25,915 bases of DNA from Acutalibacteraceae bacterium (GTDB lineage: Bacteria; Bacillota; Clostridia; Oscillospirales; Acutalibacteraceae), in contig JAZQTE010000333.1 in NCBI GenBank assembly GCA_045630505.1, positions 1-25,915 of the forward strand, written 5' to 3'. Below, piece by piece: positions 2,506 through 24,165 of this stretch (position 1 is the stretch's first letter; every line of letters starts with the position of its first letter). The position numbers were made by a program, and so were the translations under genes. Under the pieces are notes generated by a model that was given only the letters and a program-made list of their open reading frames with translations, ran no database searches and was not told the DNA's origin.

Positions 2506-2543
2506 AAAGAAGCCTTGGCAACCGCCAAGGCTTTTCTTTTTAT
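2502..2543. terminator. Bidirectional intrinsic terminator between deoR and fucU
   Basis: Stem AAGCCTTGGC (2510-2519), loop AACC, GCCAAGGCTT (2524-2533), with an A-rich run on the left and a T-rich run on the right, between convergent stop codons. Confidence 0.88.
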
Positions 2544-2992
2544 AAATATCCTTTTGCCAGCAGTAGGTTTCCATACTGCTGTTCTTCACCGGTTTGAATG
2601 ATCGCATAGGCACGCTTGGCAGCATCATAAAACTCCTGCCGTCCAAACTTCCCCAACGTGATACCCACGTATTCTTCGGCAATAGTCTTTTCAAAATCGC
2701 CCCATACCGACGGTATAGGCGTACCGCGTTTTTTGTCGCTTTCGGTCAAATCCATCACGATTACGGGTTCCTCCGTGTATTCCACATCCAACGGGAACAG
2801 CGGCAAAATGGCCTCCAACAACGCATTGGTACTCACACCGGGACAATGGATCACGTGGCCTACCACCGTATCCTTGGCATACGCTTCGGCAGGAAAGTTA
2901 CCGTCTGCCAACACCAGCACATCGCTATGCCCCATATCGCACAAGACCTTCAGTACATCCCCCGTAAGAAGTTTACTAATGTTATTCAGCAT
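2540..2992 (-). CDS. fucU: L-fucose mutarotase (RbsD/FucU family, FucU-like)
   Basis: LKVLCDMGHSDVLVLADGNFP, LLEAILPLFPLD and FYDAAKRAYAIIQTGE..YGNLLLAKG match FucU as recalled; no RbsD-type GLPIP motif. Start ATG 2992 lies 7 nt after GGAGG (alternative 2998). Confidence 0.85.
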   Translation of the reverse strand: MLNNISKLLTGDVLKVLCDMGHSDVLVLADGNFPAEAYAKDTVVGHVIHCPGVSTNALLEAILPLFPLDVEYTEEPVIVMDLTESDKKRGTPIPSVWGDFEKTIAEEYVGITLGKFGRQEFYDAAKRAYAIIQTGEEQQYGNLLLAKGYL

Positions 2993-3007
2993 AACCATTC
3001 CTCCTTT

Positions 3008-4081
3008 TTAGGATAAATAGAACGACCGATACCACTCGGCAAAGCGGCGCAAACCCGTTCGCAAATCCGTAGACGGTTTGAATCCGAAATCTTCTTCCAA
3101 CGCACTTACATCCGCATACGTAACAGGAACATCACCTGCTTGCATCGGCACAAGCTTTTTATGCGCTTCAAAATCGTAATCCGAAGGTAACACGCCGGCT
3201 CGAATAAGTTCTTGCTGCAAAATATCCACAAAGTCCAAAAGATTTTCGGGAGAATTGTTCCCAATGTTATATATCTTATACGGCGGAATCGGCAATCCGT
3301 CTTCGCCTTTTTTCTTTTCGGGTGCACACGACATAACGCGTTTTACACCTTCTACGATATCATCAACGTAGGTAAAATCGCGCTTACAGTTACCGTAGTT
3401 GAAAATTTCAATCGTTTCACCGTTGCGCAACTTGTCAGTAAACCCAAAATACGCCATATCCGGGCGTCCTGCCGGCCCGTACACGGTAAAGAATCGAAGG
3501 CCCGTACAAGGAATATTGTACAGTTTTGCATAGGCGTGAGCCATCAGTTCGTTAGATTTCTTGGTTGCCGCATACAACGAAACGGGATTGTCCACCTTGT
3601 CTCCGGTAGAGTACGGCACCTTTTTATTCGTACCGTATACGCTGGAACTGGATGCATACACCAAGTGCTCTACGGGATAAACACGGCAGGTTTCCAGCAA
3701 ATTATAAAAACCAAGAATATTGCTGTGAATATAAGCGTCAGGATTGGTGATGGAATAGCGAACACCGGCTTGCGCTGCCAAATTCACAACAACCGAAAAT
3801 TCATAGTTGTCAAACAGCTCTGCCAACAACGCTTCGTCTGCCAAATCGCCTTTTACGAAACGCCATTCGATACTCGGCTTTTTTGCAACAAGTTTCTCGA
3901 TTTCGGACAAACGATACTCTTTCAAGGAAACATCGTAGTAATCGTTCATATTATCAAGGCCAACAATCGTCACCTTATCCAGCGTCCTTGCCAATTCCAT
4001 CACCAGATTGGCACCGACAAAGCCCGCTGCTCCCGTGACAAGTATCGGTTTCCCGTTCAATTGGATATTTTCTTGTAACAT
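3008..4081 (-). CDS. NAD-dependent epimerase, UDP-glucuronate 4-epimerase type (extended SDR)
   Basis: VTGAAGFVG, VNLAAQAGVRYS, YASSSSVYG, SLYAATKKSNEL (YxxxK), GLRFFTVYGPAGRPDMAYF, RDFTYVDDIVEG, MQAGDVPVTYAD. Confidence 0.88.
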   Translation of the reverse strand: MLQENIQLNGKPILVTGAAGFVGANLVMELARTLDKVTIVGLDNMNDYYDVSLKEYRLSEIEKLVAKKPSIEWRFVKGDLADEALLAELFDNYEFSVVVNLAAQAGVRYSITNPDAYIHSNILGFYNLLETCRVYPVEHLVYASSSSVYGTNKKVPYSTGDKVDNPVSLYAATKKSNELMAHAYAKLYNIPCTGLRFFTVYGPAGRPDMAYFGFTDKLRNGETIEIFNYGNCKRDFTYVDDIVEGVKRVMSCAPEKKKGEDGLPIPPYKIYNIGNNSPENLLDFVDILQQELIRAGVLPSDYDFEAHKKLVPMQAGDVPVTYADVSALEEDFGFKPSTDLRTGLRRFAEWYRSFYLS

Positions 4082-4085
4082 AATA

Positions 4086-7040
4086 TCACCACACCAATTT
4101 GCAATCCCACACGTCTACGGGATTATCTTGGAACACCTTTTTCAGGCGCTTATGTACGTCGTCCTTGCAAACACCTTTTTTCAAAATCGCTTGCAAGAAG
4201 CCGCCGCCGCCTGCACCACAGATCATTTTACCGTCGATCAAATCGTCAATGCTGCTGAAGATCTGATCGATCAACGTGTTGGTGCTGCCGCTGTCTACCA
4301 TATTCGACAGTTCCCAATGGCGGTTCATCAGCCGCGCAAACTCATCCACGTTGCCGCGTTCCAGTTCAAACCGCATCAGCACCGCCATTTTTTGCACCTC
4401 GTTGAGCGCATACAACGAATCGGGCTCGTTGCCCACGTAGCGTCCCACCACGTCACGCAGCAAGTTGCGTGCCAAGCGACGCTGCCCCGTATAGATAAGC
4501 ACGAAGCGTTCGTCCAACTCCTGCTTGGTTTCTTCCGAAAGCTCCACGTGCTGCACCTTCATTTGCTGATACAGCGCAGGGCGGCTGGTGATATATTTCA
4601 CACCGTCGGTCACGCCGCCCACTTGGTCTTGCCAACCGCCGCCCGTGGACATAATTTGCTCCATACACAGCACGTGGCCGTAAAGATCGTCTTCCGTGTG
4701 CGGAATTCCCATAAATTCGAATACCGCTTTCACACACGCCGCAGACAAAATCGAGCTGGTCCCAAGACCGCTGCCCTTAGGCACGTTGGTAACTTCGCTG
4801 TTCATCACAAAGCCGCCGCCCAAACGGGTAAGGATCTCTTTCAAATTCCCGCCCTCTTTAGGCAAGATGCCGCACGCCAGCAAACACGCTTTTTGCAGGG
4901 CGAACGGATCGTACGGGTCGCCCGTACGTTGCAAAGGCTCAATGGTATCAAACTCGCCGTGCACGTCCATATCGCGGCTGTCGAACACGATTTTGAGTTC
5001 GTCAATGCGTTCCATCGTCACCGCAACGGGCTTATCGCCACCCAGCAAGATGGCTGCATTCAGCACGGTACCGCCGTTTTCAATGCAGTACGGCGGCGTA
5101 TCCGACCAACCGCCGCCCCAGTTTACGCGAAGCGGCAATTTCACGGTATGCTTGTCCGTCACGATACGGCAGGTATCGTTGTATTGCAGATTGTCCAGTG
5201 TTGATTTCAAAATGGCACTTTGAATGGTCTTAAAGCATTCTGCCACGTATTTGTCGCCCTCGGTGCCGCCAAGTGCCATACCAATATAGTAATTGAGGCG
5301 CATTGCTTCGCCAAACTCAACGTTTTGCAAGCGCTTCTCCAGCCATTGCTTTTGAATGGATGTGAGTCGGTCGGCATGCAGCATTCCCTTGGCTTCACGC
5401 GCGGGCTTGCCGGCGCGAATGTGTTTAACAACACCGTCCATACGCACCAGCTCTTGCATTCTTTTGTTCCACGCAATAATGGCGTCGGCATCGGCATCGT
5501 TAAAGCCGGCACACAGCGATTTACGTGCAGCGGCTTTCCACGCTGCCAAGTCCCCTGCACCGTGCGCTAATGCATACACGTTCAGTGCGGCAGCCACTGC
5601 TTCCTGCACCGTATCACACACGGGATACAAATTCGCCGTCCACAGCGTGTGATTATCGTTATCCCACAGCTCTTCGACACCGATAAATTCCGTAAGCGGC
5701 TTGCCGAACAAATTACCCTCTTTGGGATTATCGTTCGTTCCGTAAATGCGCGCCACGAACTTGCCGTCTTTCTGTTTCAGCCCGTGCAGCACCACGTTGG
5801 ACGGAATGGTTTCGTTGTGAATATCAATGTACGACAGCACCACGTTATCCCCCACGGTGGCACCGTGGTGCACGTAGGAAACCTCCAAATAAACGTTTTC
5901 ACCCACGGCAGCACGGTCGGAAAGCACACTGTTATACCCTGCCGTGGCTTTACTGATGCTGCTGTTAATATGGTTCTTCCAGCCCAAATCACTGTACGCT
6001 TCCACACCGCCGTTCATCAGCGCCAAGATCTCGCGCGTGGTACCGAAATGAATGAATTTGGCAGGCGCTAAACGCAACAGTTTCATACGGTACGGGCGAA
6101 GCACACGCCACACGTCGGTGCGAGCGGCCTTTAATTCATCGCAGTAATCGCCCTCGGGCTTCTCGTTATAAAATTGCTCCAAGGTAGAATCCGTTGCCAG
6201 CGGATACAGAAAATCTCCGTACAGCGACAAACGCACCGTTTCGTTCACCAAGGCGTCGTATCGCTCATTGGTATCGATCAAGCTATACAGCGAGCGCAGC
6301 ATATCGGCCGAGAAGATCACGGCACCCGTATCGATATCCACACAGCCCTGCGCATTGACAGCACCGCGTTCGGTAAGCGATTCCACCGTTTGCTTGTGCA
6401 AAAATTCACGCACGTTACCGTCTTCCCCACCATTGAATACCCCGTGGTTTTTGCCGGTTTGTACGTCTTCCTTGAAAGAAATGGCCGCCGCACCAACGCC
6501 GCTGTAGTCGATCTGCAGCGGATTGAACAGGAGCAGCACGTCGCCCGACAGCAACAGCATTCCTTCGCGAATGCGGGCAGGCACGGAGCTCATACCGATC
6601 AGCAGTTCGTCAAACAGCGTGGATGCTCGCCCGTTCGGCAGCTCGTGCGGCACGGGAGAAAACAGCTTGCCGAGCGCACTGTACTGCGGCACACGCTTGC
6701 TGTCGCCGCCCGAATGGATCACCAAAATACGCAGCCCTCCGAAATCGGCACTGCCTATCTCGCTCGCCAAATAGCGCAACACGCCTAGCGTCGCACCGCC
6801 GCTACCCACGCGTTTGCCGTCACGATCGGGAACAACCGCAAATTTCGTGTGCAAAGGCAAAAATCCCGCCGCACGGCGTTCTTCGATCTGCGCGCGAAAG
6901 CCTGCCGCTTGCTGCTCGTTAGAAGCCGTAAGCACCACGTAATCCCAACACGCAAACGCTTCCTTCGTGAGCGAACGACAATAATCGTCCCACGTGTCCA
7001 TATACGATTGTGATAAAAACAACGACGTTAAGTTGGTCAT
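4086..7040 (-). CDS. fkp: Bifunctional L-fucokinase / L-fucose-1-phosphate guanylyltransferase (Fkp/FKGP)
   Basis: N-terminal pyrophosphorylase motifs RVGSGGATL, HSGGDSKRVP, SGDVLL, HFGTT, then a short beta-helix-like repeat region. C-terminal GHMP kinase motifs LPLRVNWGGGWSDTPP, PKGSGLGTSS, GGGWQDQVGG, CGAGGGGF. Start ATG 7040 chosen from spacing to AAGGTG (track uses GTG 7049). Confidence 0.9.
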   Translation of the reverse strand: MTNLTSLFLSQSYMDTWDDYCRSLTKEAFACWDYVVLTASNEQQAAGFRAQIEERRAAGFLPLHTKFAVVPDRDGKRVGSGGATLGVLRYLASEIGSADFGGLRILVIHSGGDSKRVPQYSALGKLFSPVPHELPNGRASTLFDELLIGMSSVPARIREGMLLLSGDVLLLFNPLQIDYSGVGAAAISFKEDVQTGKNHGVFNGGEDGNVREFLHKQTVESLTERGAVNAQGCVDIDTGAVIFSADMLRSLYSLIDTNERYDALVNETVRLSLYGDFLYPLATDSTLEQFYNEKPEGDYCDELKAARTDVWRVLRPYRMKLLRLAPAKFIHFGTTREILALMNGGVEAYSDLGWKNHINSSISKATAGYNSVLSDRAAVGENVYLEVSYVHHGATVGDNVVLSYIDIHNETIPSNVVLHGLKQKDGKFVARIYGTNDNPKEGNLFGKPLTEFIGVEELWDNDNHTLWTANLYPVCDTVQEAVAAALNVYALAHGAGDLAAWKAAARKSLCAGFNDADADAIIAWNKRMQELVRMDGVVKHIRAGKPAREAKGMLHADRLTSIQKQWLEKRLQNVEFGEAMRLNYYIGMALGGTEGDKYVAECFKTIQSAILKSTLDNLQYNDTCRIVTDKHTVKLPLRVNWGGGWSDTPPYCIENGGTVLNAAILLGGDKPVAVTMERIDELKIVFDSRDMDVHGEFDTIEPLQRTGDPYDPFALQKACLLACGILPKEGGNLKEILTRLGGGFVMNSEVTNVPKGSGLGTSSILSAACVKAVFEFMGIPHTEDDLYGHVLCMEQIMSTGGGWQDQVGGVTDGVKYITSRPALYQQMKVQHVELSEETKQELDERFVLIYTGQRRLARNLLRDVVGRYVGNEPDSLYALNEVQKMAVLMRFELERGNVDEFARLMNRHWELSNMVDSGSTNTLIDQIFSSIDDLIDGKMICGAGGGGFLQAILKKGVCKDDVHKRLKKVFQDNPVDVWDCKLVW

Positions 7041-7053
7041 ACCATACACCTTT

Positions 7054-7962
7054 TTATTTCAATATTTCTACTTGAGATATATCTAACATTTCCGACAAAA
7101 CACGGTCGGATTCCGGCAAGCGATTTCCGTCCATTCCACCGGCAGGAGTGAATGTCATCTCGCCAAAGTATACCTTATCATCCACCGCATAAAAATCCAT
7201 TCGCACAAACGGAAACGGCTTGGCCAAAATTTCTGCATATCTGAACAAGTCATCTACACACGCCGGCTTTTCGATGTAAAAATCTTCCGGCGCCGCCAAA
7301 CCGTCACGAGTAAGACGGTGTAAGTTCCACTCCTTATCATAAAAATAAAATTTCGGATGCCCACCGTTTTCTCTTCCAACACACAACAACAGAAATGCGG
7401 CTTTCCCGTTTATACAGTACAATTTATAATCGGTTGGTAAAAAGCCTTTTCCATCATTGAGGTATTTTTCGCAAATGATTTTCTTTGGCGCATATTTGTA
7501 TTGCATCTCTGAATGCGGCAACCAAAATTTGACTTTTCCCCATTTTTTAAGTTGCTTGATCGTTTCTTCCTTATTCAACTTGCTTTTGTCATCGCAAATG
7601 ATATTCATCCCTGCGCCAAAATTCCATTTGAGAGCAAATTGTTCAGGCAGTTCCTCCCACGGAATATCTTCTGCGCGATCCCACACACCAATGAGCTCGT
7701 TGAGAATTTCTTCACAACCGCAAGCTTTAACATACTCTCGAACTGCATACTTATCGGCGCATTGGATCACCAACGGATTATGGATATAGTTATTAAGTTT
7801 TAGCCACAAGTTTTTCTCATTAAACGTAACCGGATTTTTAAGATCCAACGGTTTTCCAAAAGCATATTTATACCGCATCTTGGTATTTAACGTGGGAGAT
7901 ATCATCGTTGCGATATGAAAACGCTTGTTCCAAATCTTACTCAAAGTTGTTCGTAAGCTCAC
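7054..7962 (-). CDS. TupA-like ATP-grasp protein
   Basis: PVTFNEKNLWLKL, ADKYAVREYV, LPEQFALKWN, IICEKYL, DYKLYCINGK, FPFVRMDFY, YFGEMTFTPAGG are characteristic of the ATPgrasp_TupA family. GTG start with AAGGGG RBS. Confidence 0.88.
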   Translation of the reverse strand: MSLRTTLSKIWNKRFHIATMISPTLNTKMRYKYAFGKPLDLKNPVTFNEKNLWLKLNNYIHNPLVIQCADKYAVREYVKACGCEEILNELIGVWDRAEDIPWEELPEQFALKWNFGAGMNIICDDKSKLNKEETIKQLKKWGKVKFWLPHSEMQYKYAPKKIICEKYLNDGKGFLPTDYKLYCINGKAAFLLLCVGRENGGHPKFYFYDKEWNLHRLTRDGLAAPEDFYIEKPACVDDLFRYAEILAKPFPFVRMDFYAVDDKVYFGEMTFTPAGGMDGNRLPESDRVLSEMLDISQVEILK

Positions 7963-7975
7963 CGTTTTACACCCC

Positions 7976-9109
7976 TTAATCTCGTTTTTCGCGCAAGCGT
8001 CTGACGGCGCGAGAAATTACCCAATTATTCGTTTCTACAGCATGATTATGATAAACAAAATTATCGTTCACCGTCTGTTTGAAAAATGCCGTTTTCACAA
8101 TCGTTTTGATATAGTCTTTTACCCCTTTAACGACCGTGAGCCCGCACGTGTTAAAAATATACTGTTTAAATGCGCCTCTATACAAATCAAGGCAAAAACG
8201 ATCGACGGTTTCAACGAGTTGATCCTTGTTTTCTTCTTTCAAAACATCACAATAGCCGTTCAATTCTTTTTCGTATTCTTCGTCGTTTTCATTTAATAAC
8301 AATCGGTTATTTTCAACCTTAACAGGAATCACTTCATAAGCTATTTCTGCACCTTCTATGCGCAAACCGACCATCATTGTTTTTAAATCTACAAAAGATT
8401 GCTTGCGTCGCTGCCACAAGAAGTTTCCCAGGCTATAGAAAATCAAACCGTCGCCATAACGTTCCCACCCTTGTACTACGTGTGGGTGATGACCAATTAC
8501 CACATCTACACCGAAATCAATAAAATTCCGATACGCATCCATCCACTCAGGCATCGGGATATGTAGATTTTCCAATCCGCCGTGCGCTAATAGGACAATC
8601 TTATCGCAAACCTTTTTATATTTTCGAATTTGAAGCAGCAACTCTCGTGAAAACAAATGGGCATGGCCGCAACGCTTTTGCGCATCCGCTGTACCAAAAC
8701 TGTTTTCAGCCGCTGAAAATAATGCGACCGTTACTCCGTCAGCATTGAAAACATAGGGTTCATAGGCGTTCTTTTCACCACAGCTTGCACCGATAACCGA
8801 ACCGCCCATCGACTCCAGGTTTCGCACGGTTGTATTCAGCGCTTTTTCGCCGAAATCCAAGATATGATTGTTCGCCAAACCAAACACGTCAAACCCCAGC
8901 TGCTTCACAACCGTATAGCTTTCATCACTTTGCAACAACAGCGGTCCTGCCTTTGGAGCGGGAGAACTTTTCTCAATATCCCCCGCTGCCCCCTCAAAGT
9001 TGCATACACGAATATCATATTCTTTAAACTTTTCGACGATCTCCGGTGACAATGCAAGCTGTCCATCACCTTGTACAGCAACATCGCCAACAAATAACAT
9101 GTTAAGCAT
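7976..9109 (-). CDS. CapA/PGA_cap family metallophosphoesterase-fold protein, no N-terminal membrane anchor
   Basis: FVGDV, CNFEG, LANNHILDFG, AHGGLE, VIGHHPHVVQG, YSLGNF. Start overlaps the wzx stop. Confidence 0.85.
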   Translation of the reverse strand: MLNMLFVGDVAVQGDGQLALSPEIVEKFKEYDIRVCNFEGAAGDIEKSSPAPKAGPLLLQSDESYTVVKQLGFDVFGLANNHILDFGEKALNTTVRNLESMGGSVIGASCGEKNAYEPYVFNADGVTVALFSAAENSFGTADAQKRCGHAHLFSRELLLQIRKYKKVCDKIVLLAHGGLENLHIPMPEWMDAYRNFIDFGVDVVIGHHPHVVQGWERYGDGLIFYSLGNFLWQRRKQSFVDLKTMMVGLRIEGAEIAYEVIPVKVENNRLLLNENDEEYEKELNGYCDVLKEENKDQLVETVDRFCLDLYRGAFKQYIFNTCGLTVVKGVKDYIKTIVKTAFFKQTVNDNFVYHNHAVETNNWVISRAVRRLREKRD

Positions 9110-10424
9110 TTTCTTTCTTCTTTCGTTTTACAAAGTTTTTCAATTCTTCAATACTGATTTTCCAAGAACGGAAATATAACCCAATAAACGAACGCGTTTC
9201 TTTAAAAAAGGCCGGTGCAATGAACGCCGTGGTGATTTGTGAAATTAACGTCGCGAAAGCCGCACCATTCATACCAAACAAAGGAATAAGAATACTGTTC
9301 AACAGAATGTTAACAATAGAAGAAATGAACACATAATACTTTGAATATTTGTTAAGGTTTTCTGCCAAAATCCACGTACTACCGCGCGCTGAACCAATCA
9401 TGGCAAAGCCCGTACTCCACATCAATATTGTAAGCGGCACATATGCTACCATATACTCTTGACCGTATAGTATGAAAATGGCCAATTTTCCGAAAATCAA
9501 CAACGCAATGCACACTATCACACTCATTGCCGAAACGCCGCAAAGCAACAGTGAAAGTAATCTGGTGTATTCTTTTTCGTCTTTTCCCTTTTTCTCCAAA
9601 ATCAGCACTTTGGCGGAATTGATGATAGCCGTAGGAACAAACTCCCACAAAGTTGCAATCATCGTTGCCGCCGTATAATATCCCACGGCTTTTGAATCCA
9701 TCATGGAACCCAGCATTATTTTATCCACTTGTGTATACAAAGCGATCGCAATGCCCGAAAGAATAAAATGATAGCTTTGCTTAAAGATTCTTTGGGCGGT
9801 ATTAAATTTAAAAGTTAATTTTGTACGATACCGTTTTAAAAAGAAAATAACAACAACCGCACTACTGACCAAATATTCTACGCAGGAAGATGCCGCAAAC
9901 CATTCAACTCCCACTCCGTTTGCCAAGAGTGCAATACGCCATATACACACGAAGGTGTATCCCACCATAGAAGCAATCGATATGAATTTGTATTCCAGTT
10001 TTGCTTGAAACCAATAAGAAACTGCTTCAAACGCACGAAGAACAAGCGCAAACGACTGTAAAAAAGTGACAATATACAACGTGGTGTTTCCCGGCTCGAT
10101 AACACGCAACAAGCCGGCGATCATCCCCATACACACCATTGAGGAGATCAACCGCATTACAAAAGCAGTACCAATAATCTCGCCGCGCTCATCCGGCTTT
10201 TGAATGAGTTCCTTAACAACGACACCGTTCATACCCAAAGTGGAAAAACTCACAAACAGCGAAACCATCGACTGCCCGTAGCCAATCAATCCGTAATTAG
10301 ACGGGCCTAAATACCTTGCGGTGATAGCACCAACCACAAGGGATAACAGCATCGTATAAATTTGATTGGCAACTTGCCAACCGGTACTCCCCAAAAATCG
10401 CCCAAGCGAATTTTTTTTCAACAA
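9102..10424 (-). CDS. wzx: Wzx flippase (MOP superfamily oligosaccharide exporter)
   Basis: Many hydrophobic segments; ARYLGPSNYG, DKIMLGSM, VGYYTAA, LIPLFGMNGAAFATLIS. TTG start with GAAGGT RBS. Confidence 0.9.
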   Translation of the reverse strand: MLKKNSLGRFLGSTGWQVANQIYTMLLSLVVGAITARYLGPSNYGLIGYGQSMVSLFVSFSTLGMNGVVVKELIQKPDERGEIIGTAFVMRLISSMVCMGMIAGLLRVIEPGNTTLYIVTFLQSFALVLRAFEAVSYWFQAKLEYKFISIASMVGYTFVCIWRIALLANGVGVEWFAASSCVEYLVSSAVVVIFFLKRYRTKLTFKFNTAQRIFKQSYHFILSGIAIALYTQVDKIMLGSMMDSKAVGYYTAATMIATLWEFVPTAIINSAKVLILEKKGKDEKEYTRLLSLLLCGVSAMSVIVCIALLIFGKLAIFILYGQEYMVAYVPLTILMWSTGFAMIGSARGSTWILAENLNKYSKYYVFISSIVNILLNSILIPLFGMNGAAFATLISQITTAFIAPAFFKETRSFIGLYFRSWKISIEELKNFVKRKKKENA

Positions 10425-10443
10425 AACGACACCTTCTATCCCT

Positions 10444-11349
10444 TTATCTCTTACCCAAAATTACGTGCTTAATATACAGCTTCGTTCTATCCCATAAAGA
10501 CATATGGAATTTATCGCCATACTTTTTAAGTATCGCTTTATCTGCTTCCAAATGCTCAAATACGCACGTGTGACCTTCTTCAAAAACGGCATCATACGCA
10601 TGATTATTCCCACTGTGTGTGCCCGAACCGTCTGTTCCGATATTCTGAATTCGGGAATACTTCGGAAACACGGTATACATTTCCAGCTTGTTTTGCTGAT
10701 AGCACCAACGGATAGCCCAAGAACTGATAAAGCCTTTCATTTGAGAATCCAACATTCCCGGCATATCGTTACCGGAAACGGTAAACTTCCGTCTCATAAA
10801 CGGATTGATCTTGAACCACTTGTAGTCTTTAACGTCCCAGTCGACTAAGTCCCAACGATCTTTCCACGTAGCCCATCCCCAACTGCAGCCACGATATCCC
10901 ATATACACGTCGTGCGGGTAGTCTAACGTTGCCGGATCAAAAAAGCTGTATCCGCTGATCGACCAGATCTTTGGATTATCCTTGTAGAACGCCAACGCTC
11001 CGTTCATATATTCTAAAAAATCGGTAGTGGTAAGCAAATCATCTTCCATAACGATAGCGCTGCCATGGTGGGTAATGATCTCAGTAACACCGTCGATCAC
11101 CGACGCGGCAAGGCCTTTATTCTTTTCGGCAAAACGAAGTTCCACTTTTTTAAACGATGCTGTCTTCGCAAACTCCGTTACCAATTCTCGGACACGTTCT
11201 ACCGAAGCAACGTCTTTTTCTTTCTTGGCACCGTCAGCAAAAATATATAACACGCTTTCCGCCGCTAAACGATTTTTGCTGAGAGCTTCCAACGTTTTTT
11301 GGGTATGTTCGTATCGGTTATATACAAACAGAATAATCGGTGCATACAT
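10444..11349 (-). CDS. GT-A fold glycosyltransferase (GT2/GNT-I-like)
   Basis: APIILFVYNR, IFADG, NKGLA.SVIDGV, IVMEDDL (DxD-like), SWGWATWKDRW. Start moved to ATG 11349 after AAGGAG; the track start 11406 overlaps wzy. Confidence 0.85.
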   Translation of the reverse strand: MYAPIILFVYNRYEHTQKTLEALSKNRLAAESVLYIFADGAKKEKDVASVERVRELVTEFAKTASFKKVELRFAEKNKGLAASVIDGVTEIITHHGSAIVMEDDLLTTTDFLEYMNGALAFYKDNPKIWSISGYSFFDPATLDYPHDVYMGYRGCSWGWATWKDRWDLVDWDVKDYKWFKINPFMRRKFTVSGNDMPGMLDSQMKGFISSWAIRWCYQQNKLEMYTVFPKYSRIQNIGTDGSGTHSGNNHAYDAVFEEGHTCVFEHLEADKAILKKYGDKFHMSLWDRTKLYIKHVILGKR

Positions 11350-11383
11350 AAACGCAAACTCCTTACTGCTTGTGAATTCAAAA

Positions 11384-12616
11384 TCACTCTGCTTCTTGTC
11401 GTTCACGATCAGCCGTCACGAAAAGGAACAACGGAATAGCAAAGCCTAATTCAAACGACCAAAAAGTGGGGTTTAAAATCTGTAGAATAATAACCATAGC
11501 GAAAGACAAAACGGCAACGTATCCGACCACGGTTCTTTGGGATAATGTACGATACCATTTCCAAAGGCAACCGCCTAAGGCGCAAACAATGGCCAAGCCC
11601 ACCAATCCCCACCTAGCTAACAAGTCCATAAAGAAAGAGTGTCCTCCGCCCTTTTCGGAAGCAAAGAATGACGTACCCAGTATCGGATTTTCCAAAAATG
11701 AATTCCAAGACGCTAAATACATATTCCGTCGCAGCTCGGTATCCTCGCCGACAGTTTCTTTGCCTTGCAGCATATTGGCAATGTCGGCAATTTTTTCTGC
11801 CGAACCTTCCAAAATCGGCCACTCGGATATCCAATTTAATATCGCAGGCAAAAACACGAAAACAATTATTAAAAATAAAACAATAAAGCCTATGCGGCGC
11901 TTTACCGTCTGTAAGCTACCCTGCGAAGGAAAAAAATAGACAATACAAGAAACAAGGAACAACAGTGCCGCCGTGGCAAATTCGCTTTCCACAACACACA
12001 AACCGCTAATAACCGTAACGACAACCGCCGGCAAAGTTTTATTCATCTTGCGCAAAAAGAACACAAAAAAAGGATGAAGCAAAACCAAAGAATAGATAAA
12101 CCCAAAGCCGCCGATGTTATAAGGATAATACAAATTAAACAACGCGGGCTCTGCCGTCATCGCACGGCTGGCTTGCGGAAAGAAAAGTGTTCCTATGTAA
12201 GTAGTAGCCGCCGTAATCGTATACGCTATAATCATTCCCCAGATCAGACGCGTCATCACTCGTTCGTTTTTTCGGATAATCACAAGATATCCCGATAATA
12301 ACGCCAACCCGCAAAGGAAAACATCCCAAAGTGCATAAAAGGGATCGCCGTTTTTAATCACCAACAGCTCTGCCGCCAACAGTAATAAATAGCATATCAC
12401 CGGAACGATCAGGATCGGCACCTTGTTCGCTTGGATTCGGCTTCCTAAAAACAGGAGGATAAACAAGCAGACCAAAAGTGCCATAGCAATATACGTACTG
12501 CAATAGTACGCAAAAATCGGTACCGTTTTCCAAAAAATATAAAAAAGCAATAATAAGCTTAACATCCAGTCCGATGGAATGCTCTTTCGCTTTTTAATAC
12601 CTTTTTGCAACTCCAT
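11384..12616 (-). CDS. wzy: Wzy polymerase / O-antigen ligase family membrane protein
   Basis: About 10-11 hydrophobic segments, a large late loop (RRNMYLASW.SFLENPILG) and GGHSFFMDLLARWGLVG. Polymerase versus ligase cannot be distinguished from sequence alone. Confidence 0.7.
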   Translation of the reverse strand: MELQKGIKKRKSIPSDWMLSLLLLFYIFWKTVPIFAYYCSTYIAMALLVCLFILLFLGSRIQANKVPILIVPVICYLLLLAAELLVIKNGDPFYALWDVFLCGLALLSGYLVIIRKNERVMTRLIWGMIIAYTITAATTYIGTLFFPQASRAMTAEPALFNLYYPYNIGGFGFIYSLVLLHPFFVFFLRKMNKTLPAVVVTVISGLCVVESEFATAALLFLVSCIVYFFPSQGSLQTVKRRIGFIVLFLIIVFVFLPAILNWISEWPILEGSAEKIADIANMLQGKETVGEDTELRRNMYLASWNSFLENPILGTSFFASEKGGGHSFFMDLLARWGLVGLAIVCALGGCLWKWYRTLSQRTVVGYVAVLSFAMVIILQILNPTFWSFELGFAIPLFLFVTADRERQEAE

Positions 12617-12620
12617 TCTC

Positions 12621-13892
12621 TTACTTTTCCCCCGTTAAAATCGTTTTGTAAATAGAAACCAAATCACTCGCAGACGTATATTCCGACAAATATTCATACA
12701 TATATTTTCGAGCTTCTGCACCCATTTCGGCAGCTCTTTGCGGCTCGTCCATCAAGTCTATGATAATACTTGCTAAATGCTCATATTCTTCAAAACGATA
12801 TAAGCACCCATTTTTTCCGTTATCTACAATTTCGGGAACGCCACCCACATAACTTGCCACACACGGAACACCAACCGCCATCGCTTCACGCAGAGAAACA
12901 GAATGGTTTTCAATGCTTGACGGCGTCACAAACACATTCGCCTTCGTCAATTCGTCGGCCATTTGTTCAGAAGCCAAGCGCCCCAGAAATTGAATGTTAT
13001 TTTGCAATCCATTGTCTTCGATCAATCGCATAACGTATTTAAGATATCCGCTTTGCTTAACTCTTTTTAAAATCCCACTTTCAAAAGGATCGGCCATTCC
13101 CGGAACACGCAAAATGGCATCAGGATATTTTTGACAAACGATCTTCATTGCGTTCAAAAGAACGTGAAATCCTTTTAACGGATACCCCACCGGAGCCGTA
13201 CAGAAAACAGAATGCTTTTTACAAGAATCAACGTTCCATTCCTTGTCAAAGAAAATCGGCTTATTATTTAATCTGAAAGTATGTATCCTGCAATCGGGAG
13301 CAATTCCTTTTATCACCGCTGCAGCCCAATCACTTTCGACAATAACATTCCCCGCCAGCTTCAATATTTCCTGCTCGAATTGCGCCCGTTTTTTATACAA
13401 CCGCTTTTGTTTTTTTATAGAGTCATTCTTCAAAAAATCGCGCAGAGAATATGCTTTCCTCAGTTCTTTTTCGGTCATACCGCCGAAATAATGCCGTTCT
13501 ATCGAGCTTAGAATGCCCTGCATGATAACTACCGTGGGAATGGAGCCGGCCGCACGAATAGCGCACAAGCTGTGTGTATATTCCGTTCCCCACACCATCA
13601 TCACATCCGGTGCAGCCGAATCAATAATCTCTTTCCATAAACGCTTATTTGATTTGCTTTCAAAATCGTACACGAATCCCTTGCCACGGGGAACACAGTA
13701 GTACGTAACGTTTTCTTCCGTGAAAGTTTGATATTCCTGAACGCCGCATATAAACGCAACCGAAAGTTGGATTTGCGGCTCTTTCATCAAATCATATAAC
13801 GTCGGATCCATCCACGTCCCGCTTGCTCCGGCAAAAGATAACCGTTTTACAGCACCGCCAATCGGCTGATTTGTTATCCATAAAACTTTCAT
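12621..13892 (-). CDS. Glycosyltransferase family 4
   Basis: MKVLWITN, KGFHVLL, FVTPSSIENHSVSLREAMAVGVPCVASYVGGVPE (ExxxxxxxE motif). Alternative start ATG 13925 overlaps the upstream stop (ATGA). Confidence 0.9.
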   Translation of the reverse strand: MKVLWITNQPIGGAVKRLSFAGASGTWMDPTLYDLMKEPQIQLSVAFICGVQEYQTFTEENVTYYCVPRGKGFVYDFESKSNKRLWKEIIDSAAPDVMMVWGTEYTHSLCAIRAAGSIPTVVIMQGILSSIERHYFGGMTEKELRKAYSLRDFLKNDSIKKQKRLYKKRAQFEQEILKLAGNVIVESDWAAAVIKGIAPDCRIHTFRLNNKPIFFDKEWNVDSCKKHSVFCTAPVGYPLKGFHVLLNAMKIVCQKYPDAILRVPGMADPFESGILKRVKQSGYLKYVMRLIEDNGLQNNIQFLGRLASEQMADELTKANVFVTPSSIENHSVSLREAMAVGVPCVASYVGGVPEIVDNGKNGCLYRFEEYEHLASIIIDLMDEPQRAAEMGAEARKYMYEYLSEYTSASDLVSIYKTILTGEK

Positions 13893-13921
13893 TTCCACTC
13901 CCACTTTCTTTGGAAGAAGCA

Positions 13922-14503
13922 TCATTCTTCGATCTTCTTAATAAACTTAGCCGGATTTCCGGCCCAAATTTCGCCGTCGGGCACATCCTTCGTCACAACC
14001 GAACCGGCACCAACCACGCTGTGCTTTCCAATCGTCACGCCTTTGAGAATGATGGAGAACGCTCCGATGAAAGCACCGTCTTTGATCTCTATCGGCTTAT
14101 TGACTGCATTGCGGTCGCCGTTTTCGATACGGTCACTAAATGAAACGGCATGGAAATCCGTATCATAAATACGGCAACTGCCGCCAATACGCACGTCCTC
14201 ACCGATTGTCACCCGTTCACGGGAAACAATGGTGCAGTTAGACAAGCCGCTGCGGTCACCAATGGTAATCACGCCGTTATGCGACGTGTTCAAGATCGCT
14301 CGCGTGTCACCGCCGATCTGATTCGAACGGCGGCAAGAGTTAATGGTCACTCCGTTGCCAATAGCAAGGGTACCTTTTCCGCAAACATAGATTTTACCGT
14401 TGATCCGCACGTTTTTCCCCACGTGAGCCTTGCGGAGTTTTAACACAATAGAATTGTACAAAAAATCAAAACCATATAACAATTTAACGATCAATGTTTT
14501 CAT
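13922..14503 (-). CDS. Hexapeptide-repeat acyltransferase (maltose/galactoside O-acetyltransferase-like)
   Basis: Left-handed beta-helix repeats, IYDTDFH, IGAFSIILKGVTIGKHSVVGAGSVVTKDVP..EIWAGNPAKFIK. ATG 14503 overlaps the upstream TAA (TAATG). Confidence 0.9.
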   Translation of the reverse strand: MKTLIVKLLYGFDFLYNSIVLKLRKAHVGKNVRINGKIYVCGKGTLAIGNGVTINSCRRSNQIGGDTRAILNTSHNGVITIGDRSGLSNCTIVSRERVTIGEDVRIGGSCRIYDTDFHAVSFSDRIENGDRNAVNKPIEIKDGAFIGAFSIILKGVTIGKHSVVGAGSVVTKDVPDGEIWAGNPAKFIKKIEE

Positions 14504-15408
14504 TAAAGCTCCACACCTTTTTGTAAACAAGCGCGTATCGCATCCGTGTATTTTTCGGGAATTGTATCTTCAACTTCAATTTCGAAAGCCGCATCACTTT
14601 CCGTTAGAATCTTCTCTTTAATTTGATTGGTATAACAAATGGTGTTTTGACGGCCCAAATACCGTGCCCACATAGAAAACGACGATCCGCTTGCAATAAA
14701 CAGCGGCGCTTTAGATAAAGCAATAATATCACTGATCGCATTGCCAAACGTCTTTCTCTGCACGCTTTCCATCGACAGCAAGGGGGCTAACTCTTCGTCC
14801 GTCCCGTCTGAAAACACGTAGGCGGGTACCGTTACCCCACAGATAGCACGCACCTGCTTTAGCATCTCACAATACCATGTGATGGGTAATCGACTGTCGT
14901 GCTTTCCTGCTTTAAGTTCCGCCTCCGTTGCTTTTCCGAAATCGCCTAGCCGTACGTGCAGTAAAAGCGCACCCGCAGCATCAAATTGCAATACCGTTTT
15001 ATCACAAATGTTCGCATATAATGCTTCGCGAAGTTCTGCGTGTGCTTCACGGATCGGTTCAAAGGAACCAATAAACTTTTCAAATACCACAATGCCGTTT
15101 TCGGGGCATTGTTCTGCCATGCTCTCGTCAACTTTTTTGTGTGTCAGCAAAAGCCAAACTTTTTTAAAACCGCCAATCGCTCCGCCAGCATTGCGGAACA
15201 GCCCGATGTAATGACGTTTATCCGCTTCGCGGCGCAAATACGGGCCGATCTTAAGAGAAGGCCACGTAGGCCAGATTACACGACAACCGTTCTTCTTCGC
15301 ATAATCAAGCGCACGCCCGTATGCGAATAACAAATTCCCCAGACCGGCCCCACCTAATCGTATAAAAAACAAGTCTTTGGAAGATAACTTGGGATAAACA
15401 TATTTCAT
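14503..15408 (-). CDS. GT11-like (alpha-1,2-fucosyltransferase-related) GDP-sugar glycosyltransferase
   Basis: GLGNLLF (GT11 GLGNQxF), LHVRLGDF (HxRRGD-like), YVFSDG, and D...LS....I.SGSSFSMWA.YLG (NSTFSWW-like). Start ATG 15408 (alternative TTG 15417). Confidence 0.7.
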   Translation of the reverse strand: MKYVYPKLSSKDLFFIRLGGAGLGNLLFAYGRALDYAKKNGCRVIWPTWPSLKIGPYLRREADKRHYIGLFRNAGGAIGGFKKVWLLLTHKKVDESMAEQCPENGIVVFEKFIGSFEPIREAHAELREALYANICDKTVLQFDAAGALLLHVRLGDFGKATEAELKAGKHDSRLPITWYCEMLKQVRAICGVTVPAYVFSDGTDEELAPLLSMESVQRKTFGNAISDIIALSKAPLFIASGSSFSMWARYLGRQNTICYTNQIKEKILTESDAAFEIEVEDTIPEKYTDAIRACLQKGVEL

Positions 15409-15413
15409 AACGT

Positions 15414-16217
15414 TCAATCCTTTTCCGCCGTTCGTTTTGCAAATCTTTTAAGTTGGTTCCAAACCGACCGTAATTTGAGCCCCCAAGGAGCAGCCATAAA
15501 CGCAAAGTTCAATTTGTAAAACGGATTACTGACCGAACGCTTGGAAAACACGGTTCTCAGTGTCGGCTTTTTATAACCCGTCGTCGCTTCGTTTACACCG
15601 TAACGTACCGTATCGGTGCAGTAAATGACAAAACCCTTTTTGTGGGCACGAATCGTCCACTCATAATCAGACAAATAGTGAGGCAACAGCACGGGATGAA
15701 AACCACCGATCTTCATCCAATCGCTCACACGAAAAAATAAGCTGCGCGTGGAAGCGCAATTTGCTTCCGCTTGCGGTGTCGATATTCTCTCTGCCACCAC
15801 GGCAGGGAAGCGAAAATCCACCGCACCATCCACTTGTTCACCCGTTTGGATGCTCACACCGTATCCCGTAAGCAACGTGTTCGGTTTATCCTTTAGCACC
15901 GACAACGCGGTTTCTAAATACGCCGTATCCCATACCACGTCATCATTGGTGAGCATTACGTAATCGTTAACGTTAACATCGGCTTGTTTAACCCATTGAT
16001 AGGCCTTGTGCAGAGCACCGCCCCACCACAAATTGCCGTTTCCTTGCAGGATAACAGCATCGGGTAAAGCCGCCTTCACCATATCCGCCGTACCGTCGGT
16101 AGATCCGTCGTCCACCATCACCAAGCGAATATCTTGGTAGAACTGTGCCTTGAGTTGTTCAACAAATTTCTCGGTGATCGCTTTGCGATTATGTACCGCT
16201 GTGACGATATACAGCAC
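15414..16217 (-). CDS. Glycosyltransferase family 2
   Basis: IVTAVHNRK, VMVDDGSTDGT, GNGNLWWGG, MLTNDD, HYLSDYEW. GTG start with GGGGAAGG RBS. Confidence 0.9.
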   Translation of the reverse strand: MLYIVTAVHNRKAITEKFVEQLKAQFYQDIRLVMVDDGSTDGTADMVKAALPDAVILQGNGNLWWGGALHKAYQWVKQADVNVNDYVMLTNDDVVWDTAYLETALSVLKDKPNTLLTGYGVSIQTGEQVDGAVDFRFPAVVAERISTPQAEANCASTRSLFFRVSDWMKIGGFHPVLLPHYLSDYEWTIRAHKKGFVIYCTDTVRYGVNEATTGYKKPTLRTVFSKRSVSNPFYKLNFAFMAAPWGLKLRSVWNQLKRFAKRTAEKD

Positions 16218-16231
16218 AGCCCTTCCCCCTT

Positions 16232-17383: not shown

Positions 17384-17387
17384 ATTA

Positions 17388-18608: not shown

Positions 18609-18629
18609 TTCCGCACCAAACCTTTAGTC

Positions 18630-19856: not shown

Positions 19857-19871
19857 ACTCACGCCTCCTTA

Positions 19872-22137: not shown

Positions 22138-22150
22138 CACACTCACACCT

Positions 22151-24018: not shown

Positions 24019-24089
24019 ACCGTTCAACCCGATTACCCCTCTTCTTCCCCAAAACACGCAAACAGTAGGCGCACTTATAATTAATATAT

Positions 24090-24118
24090 ATTATATTATA
24101 TAAAGCAACCACTGTCAA
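24090..24118 (-). promoter_or_regulatory. Perfect consensus sigma-A promoter for the polysaccharide locus
   Basis: TTGACA (24118-24113), 17 bp, TATAAT (24095-24090); a second overlapping TATAAT at 24100-24095. Confidence 0.85.
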
Positions 24119-24140: not shown

Positions 24141-24165
24141 AAAAAAGCCGCCCGTTTGGGCGGCT
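24141..24165 (-). terminator. Intrinsic terminator of argS
   Basis: Minus strand AGCCGCCC-AAAC-GGGCGGCT followed by a T run, 13 bp after the argS stop. Confidence 0.88.

What the first reader, a model, noticed from the sequence alone, without database searches (positions are those of the whole stretch)
2540..15408. Complete fucose scavenge-activate-transfer route inside a Firmicute surface-polysaccharide operon
Seen: fucU (2540-2992), bifunctional fkp (4086-7040) and a GT11-like transferase (14503-15408) lie in one co-oriented Wzx/Wzy locus, and no gmd/fcl (de novo GDP-fucose) genes are in the window. Established: in Bacteroides fragilis, Fkp converts external L-fucose to GDP-fucose for surface glycans; FucU interconverts fucose anomers; GT11 enzymes make alpha-1,2-fucosyl linkages. 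Inference: this clostridial organism builds scavenged, possibly host- or diet-derived, fucose into its surface polymer. If gmd/fcl are absent genome-wide, surface fucosylation would depend on environmental fucose and could give an H-antigen-like epitope. A mutarotase co-transcribed with Fkp in a biosynthetic rather than catabolic operon points to a dedicated salvage module.
Basis: partly seen in the sequence, partly recalled or inferred. Interest (0 to 1): 0.82.

Follow-up and report, generated by a model that had tools for sequence, protein, structure and literature searches.

The report
Fucose-salvage cassette in clostridial capsule operon
A gut Clostridia bacterium carries, in one 19-gene surface-polysaccharide operon, the genes to turn free fucose into GDP-fucose and a fucosyltransferase-like enzyme to use it; the genes are real and the reading holds, but this arrangement is common and already annotated in gut Clostridia.

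Summary
fucU (2540-2992), an Fkp homologue (4086-7040) and a GT11-like transferase (14503-15408) lie on the minus strand. They share one tightly packed 19-gene Wzx/Wzy-type operon, bounded by a consensus promoter (24118-24090) and a terminator (2508-2535). Fkp keeps every BfFKP kinase-site residue checked and all pyrophosphorylase residues within the aligned stretch except one conservative R79K change. The GT11-like protein only just passes Pfam. However, it has the HxRxGD motif and a confident fold matching only GDP-fucose fucosyltransferases. All 21 Clostridia genomes sampled that hold this family also have gmd or Fkp.

No gmd or fcl was found in this 86%-complete MAG, in its three closest relatives, or in 23 of 30 Fkp-bearing genomes. 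The genome has GH29 fucosidases and fucI. The salvage-only reading is therefore plausible but not proven.

fucU lies directly beside fkp in 18 of 80 related loci. In 8 loci fkp sits beside gmd-fcl, which fits GDP-L-fucose as the product.

The clade is widespread and NCBI already names some members. This scan has reported Fkp in clostridial polysaccharide operons several times on other DNA. I class it as a new member of a known kind, of modest interest. The H-antigen idea is untested.

The parts
24090..24118 (-). Sigma-70-type promoter (TTGACA, 17 nt spacer, TATAAT; 12 of 12) upstream of the operon. The argS terminator hairpin lies just before it at 24146-24165.
22798..24057 (-). DegT/DnrJ/EryC1-type sugar aminotransferase, the first gene of the operon
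   Evidence: Pfam 305 bits
22151..22834 (-). Initiating sugar-phosphate transferase (Bac_transf)
   Evidence: Pfam 204.5 bits
19872..22146 (-). Weak PLP-fold protein (21061-22146) and an ATP-grasp L-amino-acid-ligase-like protein (19872-21068). Probably a decoration module, not part of the fucose route.
15414..19862 (-). Three GT4 glycosyltransferases and one GT2 glycosyltransferase
14503..15408 (-). GT11-like transferase, the candidate GDP-fucose-dependent fucosyltransferase. It has an HVRLGDF motif.
   Evidence: Pfam PF01531 24.6 bits against 23.9; motif; AF2 model with pLDDT 90; fold matches to NodZ, POFUT1, AtFUT1, FUT8, WbgN, WbnK and FUT1/2; co-occurrence with gmd or Fkp
13922..14530 (-). 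Hexapeptide-repeat acetyltransferase
12621..13925 (-). GT4 glycosyltransferase
11384..12616 (-). Wzy-like polymerase; the match is below Pfam's cut-off
   Evidence: Wzy_C 28.5 bits against 31.7
10444..11406 (-). Protein of 320 aa with only a faint GNT-I-like match; possibly a glycosyltransferase
9102..10424 (-). Wzx flippase (MOP family)
   Evidence: Polysacc_synt_3 95 bits
7054..9109 (-). CapA-like PGA_cap protein (7976-9109) and TupA-like ATP-grasp protein (7054-7962)
4086..7040 (-). Fkp homologue: N-terminal fucose-1-phosphate guanylyltransferase domain fused to a C-terminal GHMP-family L-fucokinase domain
3008..4081 (-). Extended SDR that most resembles UDP-sugar (hexuronate or HexNAc) 4-epimerases. 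It is not gmd or fcl.
2540..2992 (-). FucU-type L-fucose mutarotase, the last gene of the operon
2508..2535 (.). Bidirectional intrinsic-terminator-like hairpin (12 pairs) between fucU and the convergent DeoR gene

Best explanation
This is a fucose-salvage supply cassette, fkp plus fucU, at the 3' end of a Wzx/Wzy-type surface-polysaccharide operon. Inferred model: free L-fucose is probably released by the organism's own GH29 fucosidases from host or plant glycans and then taken up. FucU brings it to anomeric equilibrium. [quoted passage not shown] Shown here: gene identities, conserved active-site residues, operon structure, comparative linkage, and no gmd or fcl detected. Inferred: substrate, product, acceptor, linkage, co-transcription and dependence on external fucose.
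For: Fkp: Pfam Fucose_pyrophosphorylase 290 bits plus GHMP domains, and 215 bits to B. fragilis FKP 5yys. The BfFKP kinase-site residues R592, W599, D601, T602, G717, E751, G759, Q761, D762 and A900 are all identical. The pyrophosphorylase residues D31, G38, S39, H73, G75, G76, S78, R80, K89, D136, V137, H168 and G169 are kept, and R79 is a lysine (alignment; residue roles from PMC11982464 and PMC12732313). In 8 of 80 related loci fkp lies within 10 kb of genuine gmd and fcl, with a ManC-type gene as well in the one locus annotated by Pfam. That is as expected if both routes feed the same GDP-L-fucose pool. FucU: the best solved matches are mouse fucose mutarotase 2wcu (1e-29), B. longum FucU and E. 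coli FucU, against 1e-4 for RbsD. It lies within 600 bp of fkp in 18 of 80 loci and within 10 kb in 23. In 12 of 16 such genomes it is the only RbsD/FucU gene. GT11-like: invariant H154, R156, G158 and D159 in the family alignment. The model has pLDDT 90. The listed PDB fold matches are all GDP-fucose fucosyltransferases and the top Swiss-Prot matches are GT11 members. Of 40 genomes with this family, 29 have gmd and 6 more have only Fkp. All 21 Clostridia among them have one or the other, against gmd in 8 of 97 in a class sample. Operon: promoter, terminator and gene gaps of 21 nt or less. Supply and dependence: no gmd or fcl in the genome; GH29 fucosidases and fucI are present; gmd is absent from 23 of 30 Fkp-bearing genomes, including the three closest relatives; and 20 of those 23 have GH29.
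Against: There is no biochemical or compositional evidence for this organism or this Fkp clade, and I found no paper on Fkp in Clostridia. Fkp scores 457 bits against the NCBIfam equivalog cut-off of 721, and FucU 91 against 141, so both are diverged from the characterised proteins. BfFKP and TxFKP also accept D-arabinose and tolerate changes at C5 (PMC12732313, PMC11982464), so sequence does not fix the sugar. The GT11 Pfam match is marginal and the best structural neighbour is a colitosyltransferase. Only 7 of the 80 Fkp loci have this GT11-like family within 10 kb, so Fkp does not depend on it. No fucose transporter was identified (FucP not found). The MAG is 86% complete in 452 contigs, so gmd and fcl could lie in unassembled DNA.
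Confidence: 0.72

Rival explanations
1. The route is real but not obligatory. gmd and fcl lie in the unassembled 14% of the genome, so fucosylation does not depend on external fucose.
For: The genome is 86% complete with 452 contigs of median 3.2 kb. Seven of 30 Fkp-bearing genomes do carry gmd, sometimes beside fkp.
Against: gmd was not found in the three closest relatives that share the locus, nor in 23 of 30 Fkp-bearing genomes. In the family sample the Fkp-positive and gmd-positive genomes do not overlap: 3 and 5 of 80, including Fkp genomes that are 93-99% complete.
Confidence: 0.15
2. This Fkp clade activates another sugar, such as D-arabinose or L-galactose, and the transferase moves that sugar rather than L-fucose.
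For: Characterised FKPs are promiscuous at C5 and accept D-arabinose (PMC12732313; PMC11982464). The protein falls below the NCBIfam equivalog cut-off. The top fold match of the transferase uses GDP-colitose.
Against: All ten sugar- and phosphate-contacting kinase residues are identical to BfFKP. The gene is linked to fucose-type mutarotases. It lies beside gmd-fcl in 8 loci. The genome has fucosidases and fucI, so free fucose is the sugar most likely to be available.
Confidence: 0.07
3. GDP-fucose is made here, but the GT11-like protein is not the fucosyltransferase. Another transferase of the locus (GT2, GT4 or the 320-aa protein) adds fucose, and the GT11-like enzyme uses a different donor.
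For: The Pfam match is marginal and partial. 73 of 80 Fkp loci lack this family within 10 kb. Five of 40 genomes with the family showed neither gmd nor Fkp, including one complete genome.
Against: The family has an invariant HxRxGD motif. The listed fold matches are all GDP-fucose or GDP-colitose transferases. 35 of 40 genomes, and all 21 Clostridia, have a GDP-fucose source.
Confidence: 0.12
4. fucU sits here by chance or serves fucose catabolism, and has no role in salvage.
For: FucU is classically a catabolic-operon gene, and the genome has fucI.
Against: It lies 15 nt after the SDR and before the operon terminator. It is adjacent to fkp in 18 of 80 loci from several families and in two Victivallales MAGs. 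It is the only FucU in 12 of 16 such genomes. This genome has a second paralogue, 38% identical, on another contig.
Confidence: 0.08

Closest known systems
Bacteroides fragilis FKP (Fkp), bifunctional L-fucokinase / GDP-L-fucose pyrophosphorylase (PDB 5yys, 9iit, 9iip; PMC11982464, PMC6468028)
   Same: Same two-domain order and a similar length (984 against 949 aa). The kinase-site residues checked are identical and the pyrophosphorylase residues are kept apart from R79K. Same proposed use, putting scavenged fucose on surface glycans.
   Different: The whole protein scores only 215 bits, and the N-terminal domain aligns weakly by pairwise search (24 bits). It is below the NCBIfam equivalog cut-off (457 against 721). 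Here the gene is inside a polysaccharide operon with fucU, and no gmd or fcl was found. From my own knowledge, not checked here, B. fragilis also has the de novo route.
Mammalian fucose salvage: fucose mutarotase (FUOM/FucM, PDB 2wcu) with fucokinase and GDP-fucose pyrophosphorylase
   Same: A mutarotase is paired with a fucokinase. The window's FucU has mouse FucM as its best solved match (1e-29). From my own knowledge, fucokinase uses the beta anomer and the mutarotase speeds salvage incorporation.
   Different: In mammals these are separate genes and are not in an operon. Here the kinase and pyrophosphorylase are fused and are apparently co-transcribed with the transferases that use the product.
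GT11 alpha-1,2-fucosyltransferases and relatives (E. coli WbnK, WbgN colitosyltransferase, FUT1/FUT2)
   Same: GT-B fucosyltransferase fold and an HxRxGD donor motif. These are the top Swiss-Prot fold matches, and Pfam PF01531 is just passed.
   Different: Identity is 13-17%. Only the C-terminal half matches the Pfam model. The motif reads HVRLGDF, with L at the position that I recall, from my own knowledge, as the second arginine of the classic GT11 motif. Acceptor and linkage are unknown.
Fkp genes in other clostridial polysaccharide operons
   Same: Same clade at 64-87% identity in 80 loci from Acutalibacteraceae, Oscillospiraceae, Lachnospiraceae, Blautia, Ruminococcus and others. NCBI names some of them as bifunctional fucokinase/L-fucose-1-P-guanylyltransferase.
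   Different: This locus holds mutarotase, Fkp and a GT11-like gene in one delimited operon, in a genome with no gmd or fcl detected. Only L009 and L013 show a close GT11-like homologue in the same locus; weaker matches occur in five others.

Membership tests
Fkp (bifunctional L-fucokinase / GDP-L-fucose pyrophosphorylase) | N-terminal fucose-1-P guanylyltransferase domain fused to a C-terminal GHMP kinase domain in one polypeptide of about 950-1000 aa | tested here: met
   PF07959 at residues 106-479 (290 bits), then PF00288 and PF08544 at 753-965. NF009948 aligns over positions 48-940 of 974.
Fkp (bifunctional L-fucokinase / GDP-L-fucose pyrophosphorylase) | Kinase-site residues of BfFKP: R592, W599, D601, T602, G717, E751, G759, Q761, D762, A900 | tested here: met
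   All are identical in the phmmer alignment to 5yys. Their roles are taken from PMC11982464.
Fkp (bifunctional L-fucokinase / GDP-L-fucose pyrophosphorylase) | Pyrophosphorylase residues: D31, H73, G75/G76, R80, K89, D136, H168, and also K187 and H272 | tested here: inconclusive
   D31, G38, S39, H73, G75, G76, S78, R80, K89, D136, V137, H168 and G169 are conserved within the aligned stretch 28-173, and R79 is a lysine. Q186, K187, F270 and H272 lie beyond the pairwise alignment and were not checked.
Fkp (bifunctional L-fucokinase / GDP-L-fucose pyrophosphorylase) | Score above the NCBIfam equivalog cut-off (NF009948, 721 bits) | tested here: not met
   456.6 bits. No clostridial homologue searched reached the cut-off either. 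The model is tuned to Bacteroidota-type proteins, so this is a diverged clade.
Fkp (bifunctional L-fucokinase / GDP-L-fucose pyrophosphorylase) | Makes GDP-L-fucose from L-fucose, ATP and GTP | not testable with these tools
   Needs an enzyme assay.
FucU / L-fucose mutarotase (RbsD_FucU) | Family membership, and closer to fucose mutarotases than to RbsD ribose pyranase | tested here: met
   PF05025 114 bits. Matches to 2wcu 1e-29, 3mvk 4e-28 and 2wcv 7e-20, against RbsD 1ogc 1e-4.
FucU / L-fucose mutarotase (RbsD_FucU) | Score above the NCBIfam L-fucose mutarotase equivalog cut-off (141 bits) | tested here: not met
   90.6 bits.
GT11 (alpha-1,2-fucosyltransferase family) | Pfam PF01531 at or above the gathering score | tested here: met
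   24.6 bits against 23.9, covering residues 153-280 only. Most homologues carry a precomputed PF01531 hit. The pass is marginal.
GT11 (alpha-1,2-fucosyltransferase family) | GDP-fucose-binding HxRRGD-type motif | tested here: met
   HVRLGDF at 154-160. H154, R156, L157, G158, D159 and F160 are invariant in 24 homologues. The second arginine of the classic motif is a leucine.
GT11 (alpha-1,2-fucosyltransferase family) | GT-B fucosyltransferase fold | tested here: met
   AF2 model with pLDDT 90.3. Foldseek PDB matches are NodZ, POFUT1, AtFUT1, POFUT2 and FUT8 (E 4e-6 to 3e-4, TM 0.4-0.5). Swiss-Prot matches are WbgN, WbnK and FUT1/2 (E 6e-10 to 1e-6, TM 0.5-0.56).
GT11 (alpha-1,2-fucosyltransferase family) | Transfers L-fucose in alpha-1,2 linkage, usually to galactose (H-antigen type) | not testable with these tools
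   Acceptor and linkage cannot be read from sequence. The only indirect support is co-occurrence with a GDP-fucose source (35 of 40 genomes).
Wzx/Wzy-dependent polysaccharide locus | Initiating phosphoglycosyl transferase, flippase and polymerase | tested here: met
   Bac_transf 204.5 bits and Wzx Polysacc_synt_3 95 bits. Wzy_C scores only 28.5 against 31.7, so the polymerase call is weak.
Wzx/Wzy-dependent polysaccharide locus | Chain-length regulator or tyrosine-kinase genes (Wzz/CpsCD type) in the locus | tested here: not met
   None of the 22 window proteins scanned has such a domain. The rest of the genome was not searched.
De novo GDP-fucose pathway (Gmd, Fcl) | gmd and fcl present | tested here: not met
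   The best gmd score in the genome is 41 bits (cut-off 415) and the best Fcl score is 36 bits (cut-off 500), both from other SDRs. The genome is 86% complete.

The most novel reading that the evidence does not exclude
In most Fkp-bearing gut Clostidia, including this one, free fucose is the only route to GDP-fucose. Whether the capsule is fucosylated would then depend on fucose that the cell frees with its own GH29 fucosidases from host mucin or plant glycans. fucU-fkp would act as a portable precursor cassette attached to otherwise variable polysaccharide operons. That would make surface fucosylation of abundant gut Firmicutes depend on diet and host, and it would make these bacteria labelable with fucose analogues, as shown so far only for Bacteroidales.
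Probability: 0.4. Interest if true: 0.55.

Novelty: new member of a known kind. Interest (0 to 1): 0.35.

Why it matters
Surface fucosylation by salvage is a textbook feature of Bacteroides and is tied to gut colonisation. The evidence here suggests that many gut Clostridia have the same ability, often with no de novo route and often with a mutarotase beside Fkp. I found no experimental paper on this. If confirmed, capsule composition in these bacteria would depend on available fucose. Fucose analogues such as alkynyl-fucose could then label or track them in communities. The value lies in pointing to cultured strains that can be tested, not in a new mechanism.

Tried and rejected
1. I considered whether the SDR at 3008-4081 is a hidden gmd or fcl, or an enzyme that modifies GDP-fucose. 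I rejected this. It scores far below both cut-offs. Its nearest solved relatives after 5u4q are UDP-sugar 4-epimerases. It is a very common Clostridia protein, with 8000 hits at E <= 1e-60 and many about 80% identical, so its presence beside fkp in about 6 of 80 loci is not a specific link. Its exact substrate is still open: the atlas names and a paper search for 5u4q gave nothing.
2. Sequence and profile searches of the PDB with the GT11-like protein found nothing meaningful. Only the fold search was informative.
3. A FucP-type fucose permease was not found, so the uptake system is unidentified.
4. fucA and fucK gave only family-level matches below the equivalog cut-offs, so only fucI is securely identified for catabolism.
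5. Sequencing runs: no RNA holder is listed, and the DNA holders have small shares (at most 0.21) in animal gut and manure metagenomes that I did not lay. This gives no evidence on expression or habitat.
6. Literature searches for Fkp or fucose salvage in Firmicutes, Clostridia or Lachnospiraceae found no specific study. The FKP phylogeny paper does not mention these taxa by name.
7. I did not run complex prediction, because no binding claim is made.


Full report
**Observation.** The window is contig C333 of a fragmented MAG: 1.97 Mb in 452 contigs, 86% complete and 5% contaminated. Twenty minus-strand ORFs fill positions 2540-25912.

RbsD_FucU is at 2540-2998 (114 bits). Fucose_pyrophosphorylase plus GHMP kinase domains are at 4086-7049 (290 bits). 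Glyco_transf_11 is at 14503-15417 (24.6 bits against a cut-off of 23.9, C-terminal half only).
- The same strand carries the rest of a Wzx/Wzy-type locus. In order: a DegT aminotransferase, a Bac_transf initiating transferase, a weak PLP-fold protein, an ATP-grasp ligase, four GT4 and one GT2 transferases, a hexapeptide acetyltransferase, a Wzy-like protein, a 320-aa protein with a faint GNT-I-like match, Wzx, a CapA-like protein and a TupA-like ATP-grasp.
- Gaps between the 19 genes run from -37 to +21 nt.
- A 12/12 sigma-70 consensus promoter lies at 24118-24090, just after a terminator that closes argS. A 12-pair bidirectional terminator at 2508-2535 separates fucU from a convergent DeoR gene.

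The three genes therefore sit in one delimited operon of about 21.6 kb, with fkp, the SDR and fucU as its last three genes.

**What the gene between fucU and fkp is.** The 357-aa SDR at 3008-4081 matches the broad GDP_Man_Dehyd Pfam model. Against the specific models it scores only 41 bits for gmd (cut-off 415) and 37 bits for Fcl (cut-off 500). Its best solved relative is 5u4q (1.6e-106), whose substrate I could not establish. The next are UDP-GlcNAc and UDP-GlcA 4-epimerases: WbgU, WbpP, 6zl6 and MoeE5. It is a very common Clostridia protein. It is neither a de novo GDP-fucose gene nor specifically tied to Fkp.

**Fkp.** The protein aligns over 893 of 974 positions of the NCBIfam Fkp model, but scores 457 bits against a cut-off of 721. 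It scores 215 bits to B. fragilis FKP.

- In that alignment every residue reported to contact fucose-1-phosphate or to catalyse phosphoryl transfer is identical: R592, W599, D601, T602, G717, E751, G759, Q761, D762 and A900.
- The pyrophosphorylase residues inside the aligned stretch are kept: D31, G38, S39, H73, G75, G76, S78, R80, K89, D136, V137, H168 and G169. R79 is a lysine. Residue roles come from PMC11982464 and PMC12732313.
- K187 and H272 lie outside the pairwise alignment and were not checked.

The clade is large. 6017 proteins matched at E <= 0.001 among the 8000 candidates scored. 170 stretches in species-representative genomes encode a relative; the best 80 loci were kept, at 64-87% identity. 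They come from Acutalibacteraceae, Oscillospiraceae, Lachnospiraceae, Blautia, Ruminococcus and Roseburia, and from two Victivallales MAGs. NCBI already names some members as bifunctional fucokinase/L-fucose-1-P-guanylyltransferase.

**Comparative context of fkp.** I scanned the 80 loci in six frames.

- fucU is within 10 kb of fkp in 23 loci and within 600 bp in 18.
- Genuine gmd and fcl (E below 1e-190) are within 10 kb of fkp in 8 loci. In L033, the one locus annotated by Pfam, a ManC-type gene is there as well. Having salvage and de novo genes in one locus fits a shared product, GDP-L-fucose.
- In 16 genomes where fucU is linked to fkp, that gene is the only RbsD/FucU member in 12.
- This genome has a second paralogue, 38% identical, on another contig and not next to fucose genes.
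- The window's FucU is closest to the mouse, Bifidobacterium and E. coli fucose mutarotases and far from RbsD.

**The transferase.** The Pfam match is marginal and PDB sequence searches found nothing.

- The family alignment of 24 sequences, down to 46% identity, has an invariant HVRLGDF block.
- The AlphaFold model is confident (pLDDT 90.3).
- The listed Foldseek matches in the PDB are all GDP-fucose fucosyltransferases: NodZ, POFUT1, AtFUT1, POFUT2 and FUT8. The top Swiss-Prot matches are GT11 members: the WbgN colitosyltransferase, WbnK and FUT1/FUT2.

As an independent test I fetched 79 loci that encode the family and searched 40 of their genomes.

- 29 genomes have gmd and 8 have Fkp. 35 have at least one. 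One of the five without either still has fcl beside the gene.
- All 21 Clostridia genomes among them have one or the other: 15 gmd and 6 Fkp only.
- For comparison, gmd is in 8 of 97 genomes of a class-wide sample. In a sample of 80 genera from the window's family, gmd is in 5 and Fkp in 3.
- Related genomes are not independent, so I give no test statistic, but the enrichment is large.
- Linkage and acceptor remain unknown, so the H-antigen idea is untested.

**Is salvage the only route?**

- No gmd or fcl was detected in the genome.
- None was found in the three closest relatives that share the fkp and fucU end of the locus; two of them also share the SDR (L008, L009, L010).
- gmd was missing from 23 of 30 Fkp-bearing genomes tested.
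- In the family sample the Fkp-positive and gmd-positive genomes do not overlap.
- The genome holds at least two clear GH29 alpha-L-fucosidases and a full fucI (917 bits) with an AraC regulator.
- 20 of the 23 genomes with Fkp and no gmd also have GH29.

This fits an organism that frees fucose from glycans, burns part of it and diverts part to GDP-fucose. With 14% of the genome missing, obligate salvage remains likely rather than shown. No FucP-type permease was found.

**Locus history.** Genome GC is 52.6%. Fkp (54%) and the flanking glpD, DeoR and argS genes match it, while the central genes are 40-48% GC. L009 and L010 share the flanks, fkp, the SDR and fucU at 66-90% identity, but differ in the middle. 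The one same-genus genome searched (99% complete) has no Fkp. This is the usual mosaic of variable polysaccharide loci.

**Comparison with what is known, and novelty.** The mechanism is that of Bacteroides Fkp. The pairing of a mutarotase with a kinase is the one known from mammalian salvage (my own knowledge). Three things differ here: the host lineage, the placement inside the polysaccharide operon, and the apparent lack of the de novo route. I found no paper on this in Clostridia. The family is already annotated, and this scan has reported Fkp in clostridial polysaccharide operons several times on other DNA, with follow-ups that called it ordinary. My results agree and add counts: fucU adjacency, frequent absence of gmd, the link between the GT11-like family and a GDP-fucose source, and GH29 co-occurrence. 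I class it as a new member of a known kind, with interest 0.35.

Noticed in passing
L033:12999-13907 (and L011, L038, L049, L055, L057, L087): An AraC-family regulator of about 300 aa lies directly beside fkp in about 7 related loci, most of which also carry gmd and fcl. It may be a fucose-responsive regulator of GDP-fucose supply. It is absent from the window.
   Followed up: partly
window 7054-9109 and 19872-22146: The operon holds two ligase-type modules: a TupA-like ATP-grasp with a CapA-like protein, and a weak PLP-fold protein with an L-amino-acid-ligase-type ATP-grasp. Together with a UDP-sugar 4-epimerase-like SDR, they suggest amino-acid decoration of the polymer.
   Followed up: no
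G000:C321:2372-2821 (L096): A second FucU paralogue, 38% identical and with a stronger Pfam score (143 bits), sits next to a ZIP transporter and a PIG-L deacetylase, not next to fucose catabolic genes.
   Followed up: partly
G000:C374:8433-11307 (L093): An L-fucose isomerase (917 bits) has a divergent AraC regulator at a contig end. Any downstream fucK or fucA genes would be cut off by the assembly.
   Followed up: partly
L040 and L069 (Victivallales MAGs): Fkp is 70-71% identical to the window's protein, with fucU immediately upstream, in MAGs labelled as another phylum. This suggests the fucU-fkp pair moved between phyla, or that the contigs were misbinned.
   Followed up: no
window 7001-20000 against the flanks: The locus is a compositional mosaic. 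Central polysaccharide genes are 40-48% GC, against 52.6% for the genome, 54% for fkp and 53-56% for the glpD, DeoR and argS flanks.
   Followed up: partly
L168 (Pseudopelagicola sp. complete genome): A GT11-like homologue, 37% identical, occurs in a complete genome where neither gmd nor Fkp was found at E <= 1e-50. Distant members of the family may therefore use another donor.
   Followed up: no
G035:C19:61427-62398: An Fkp-like match in a genome of the same family has two in-frame stops (TAG and TAA) and may be a decaying copy.
   Followed up: no
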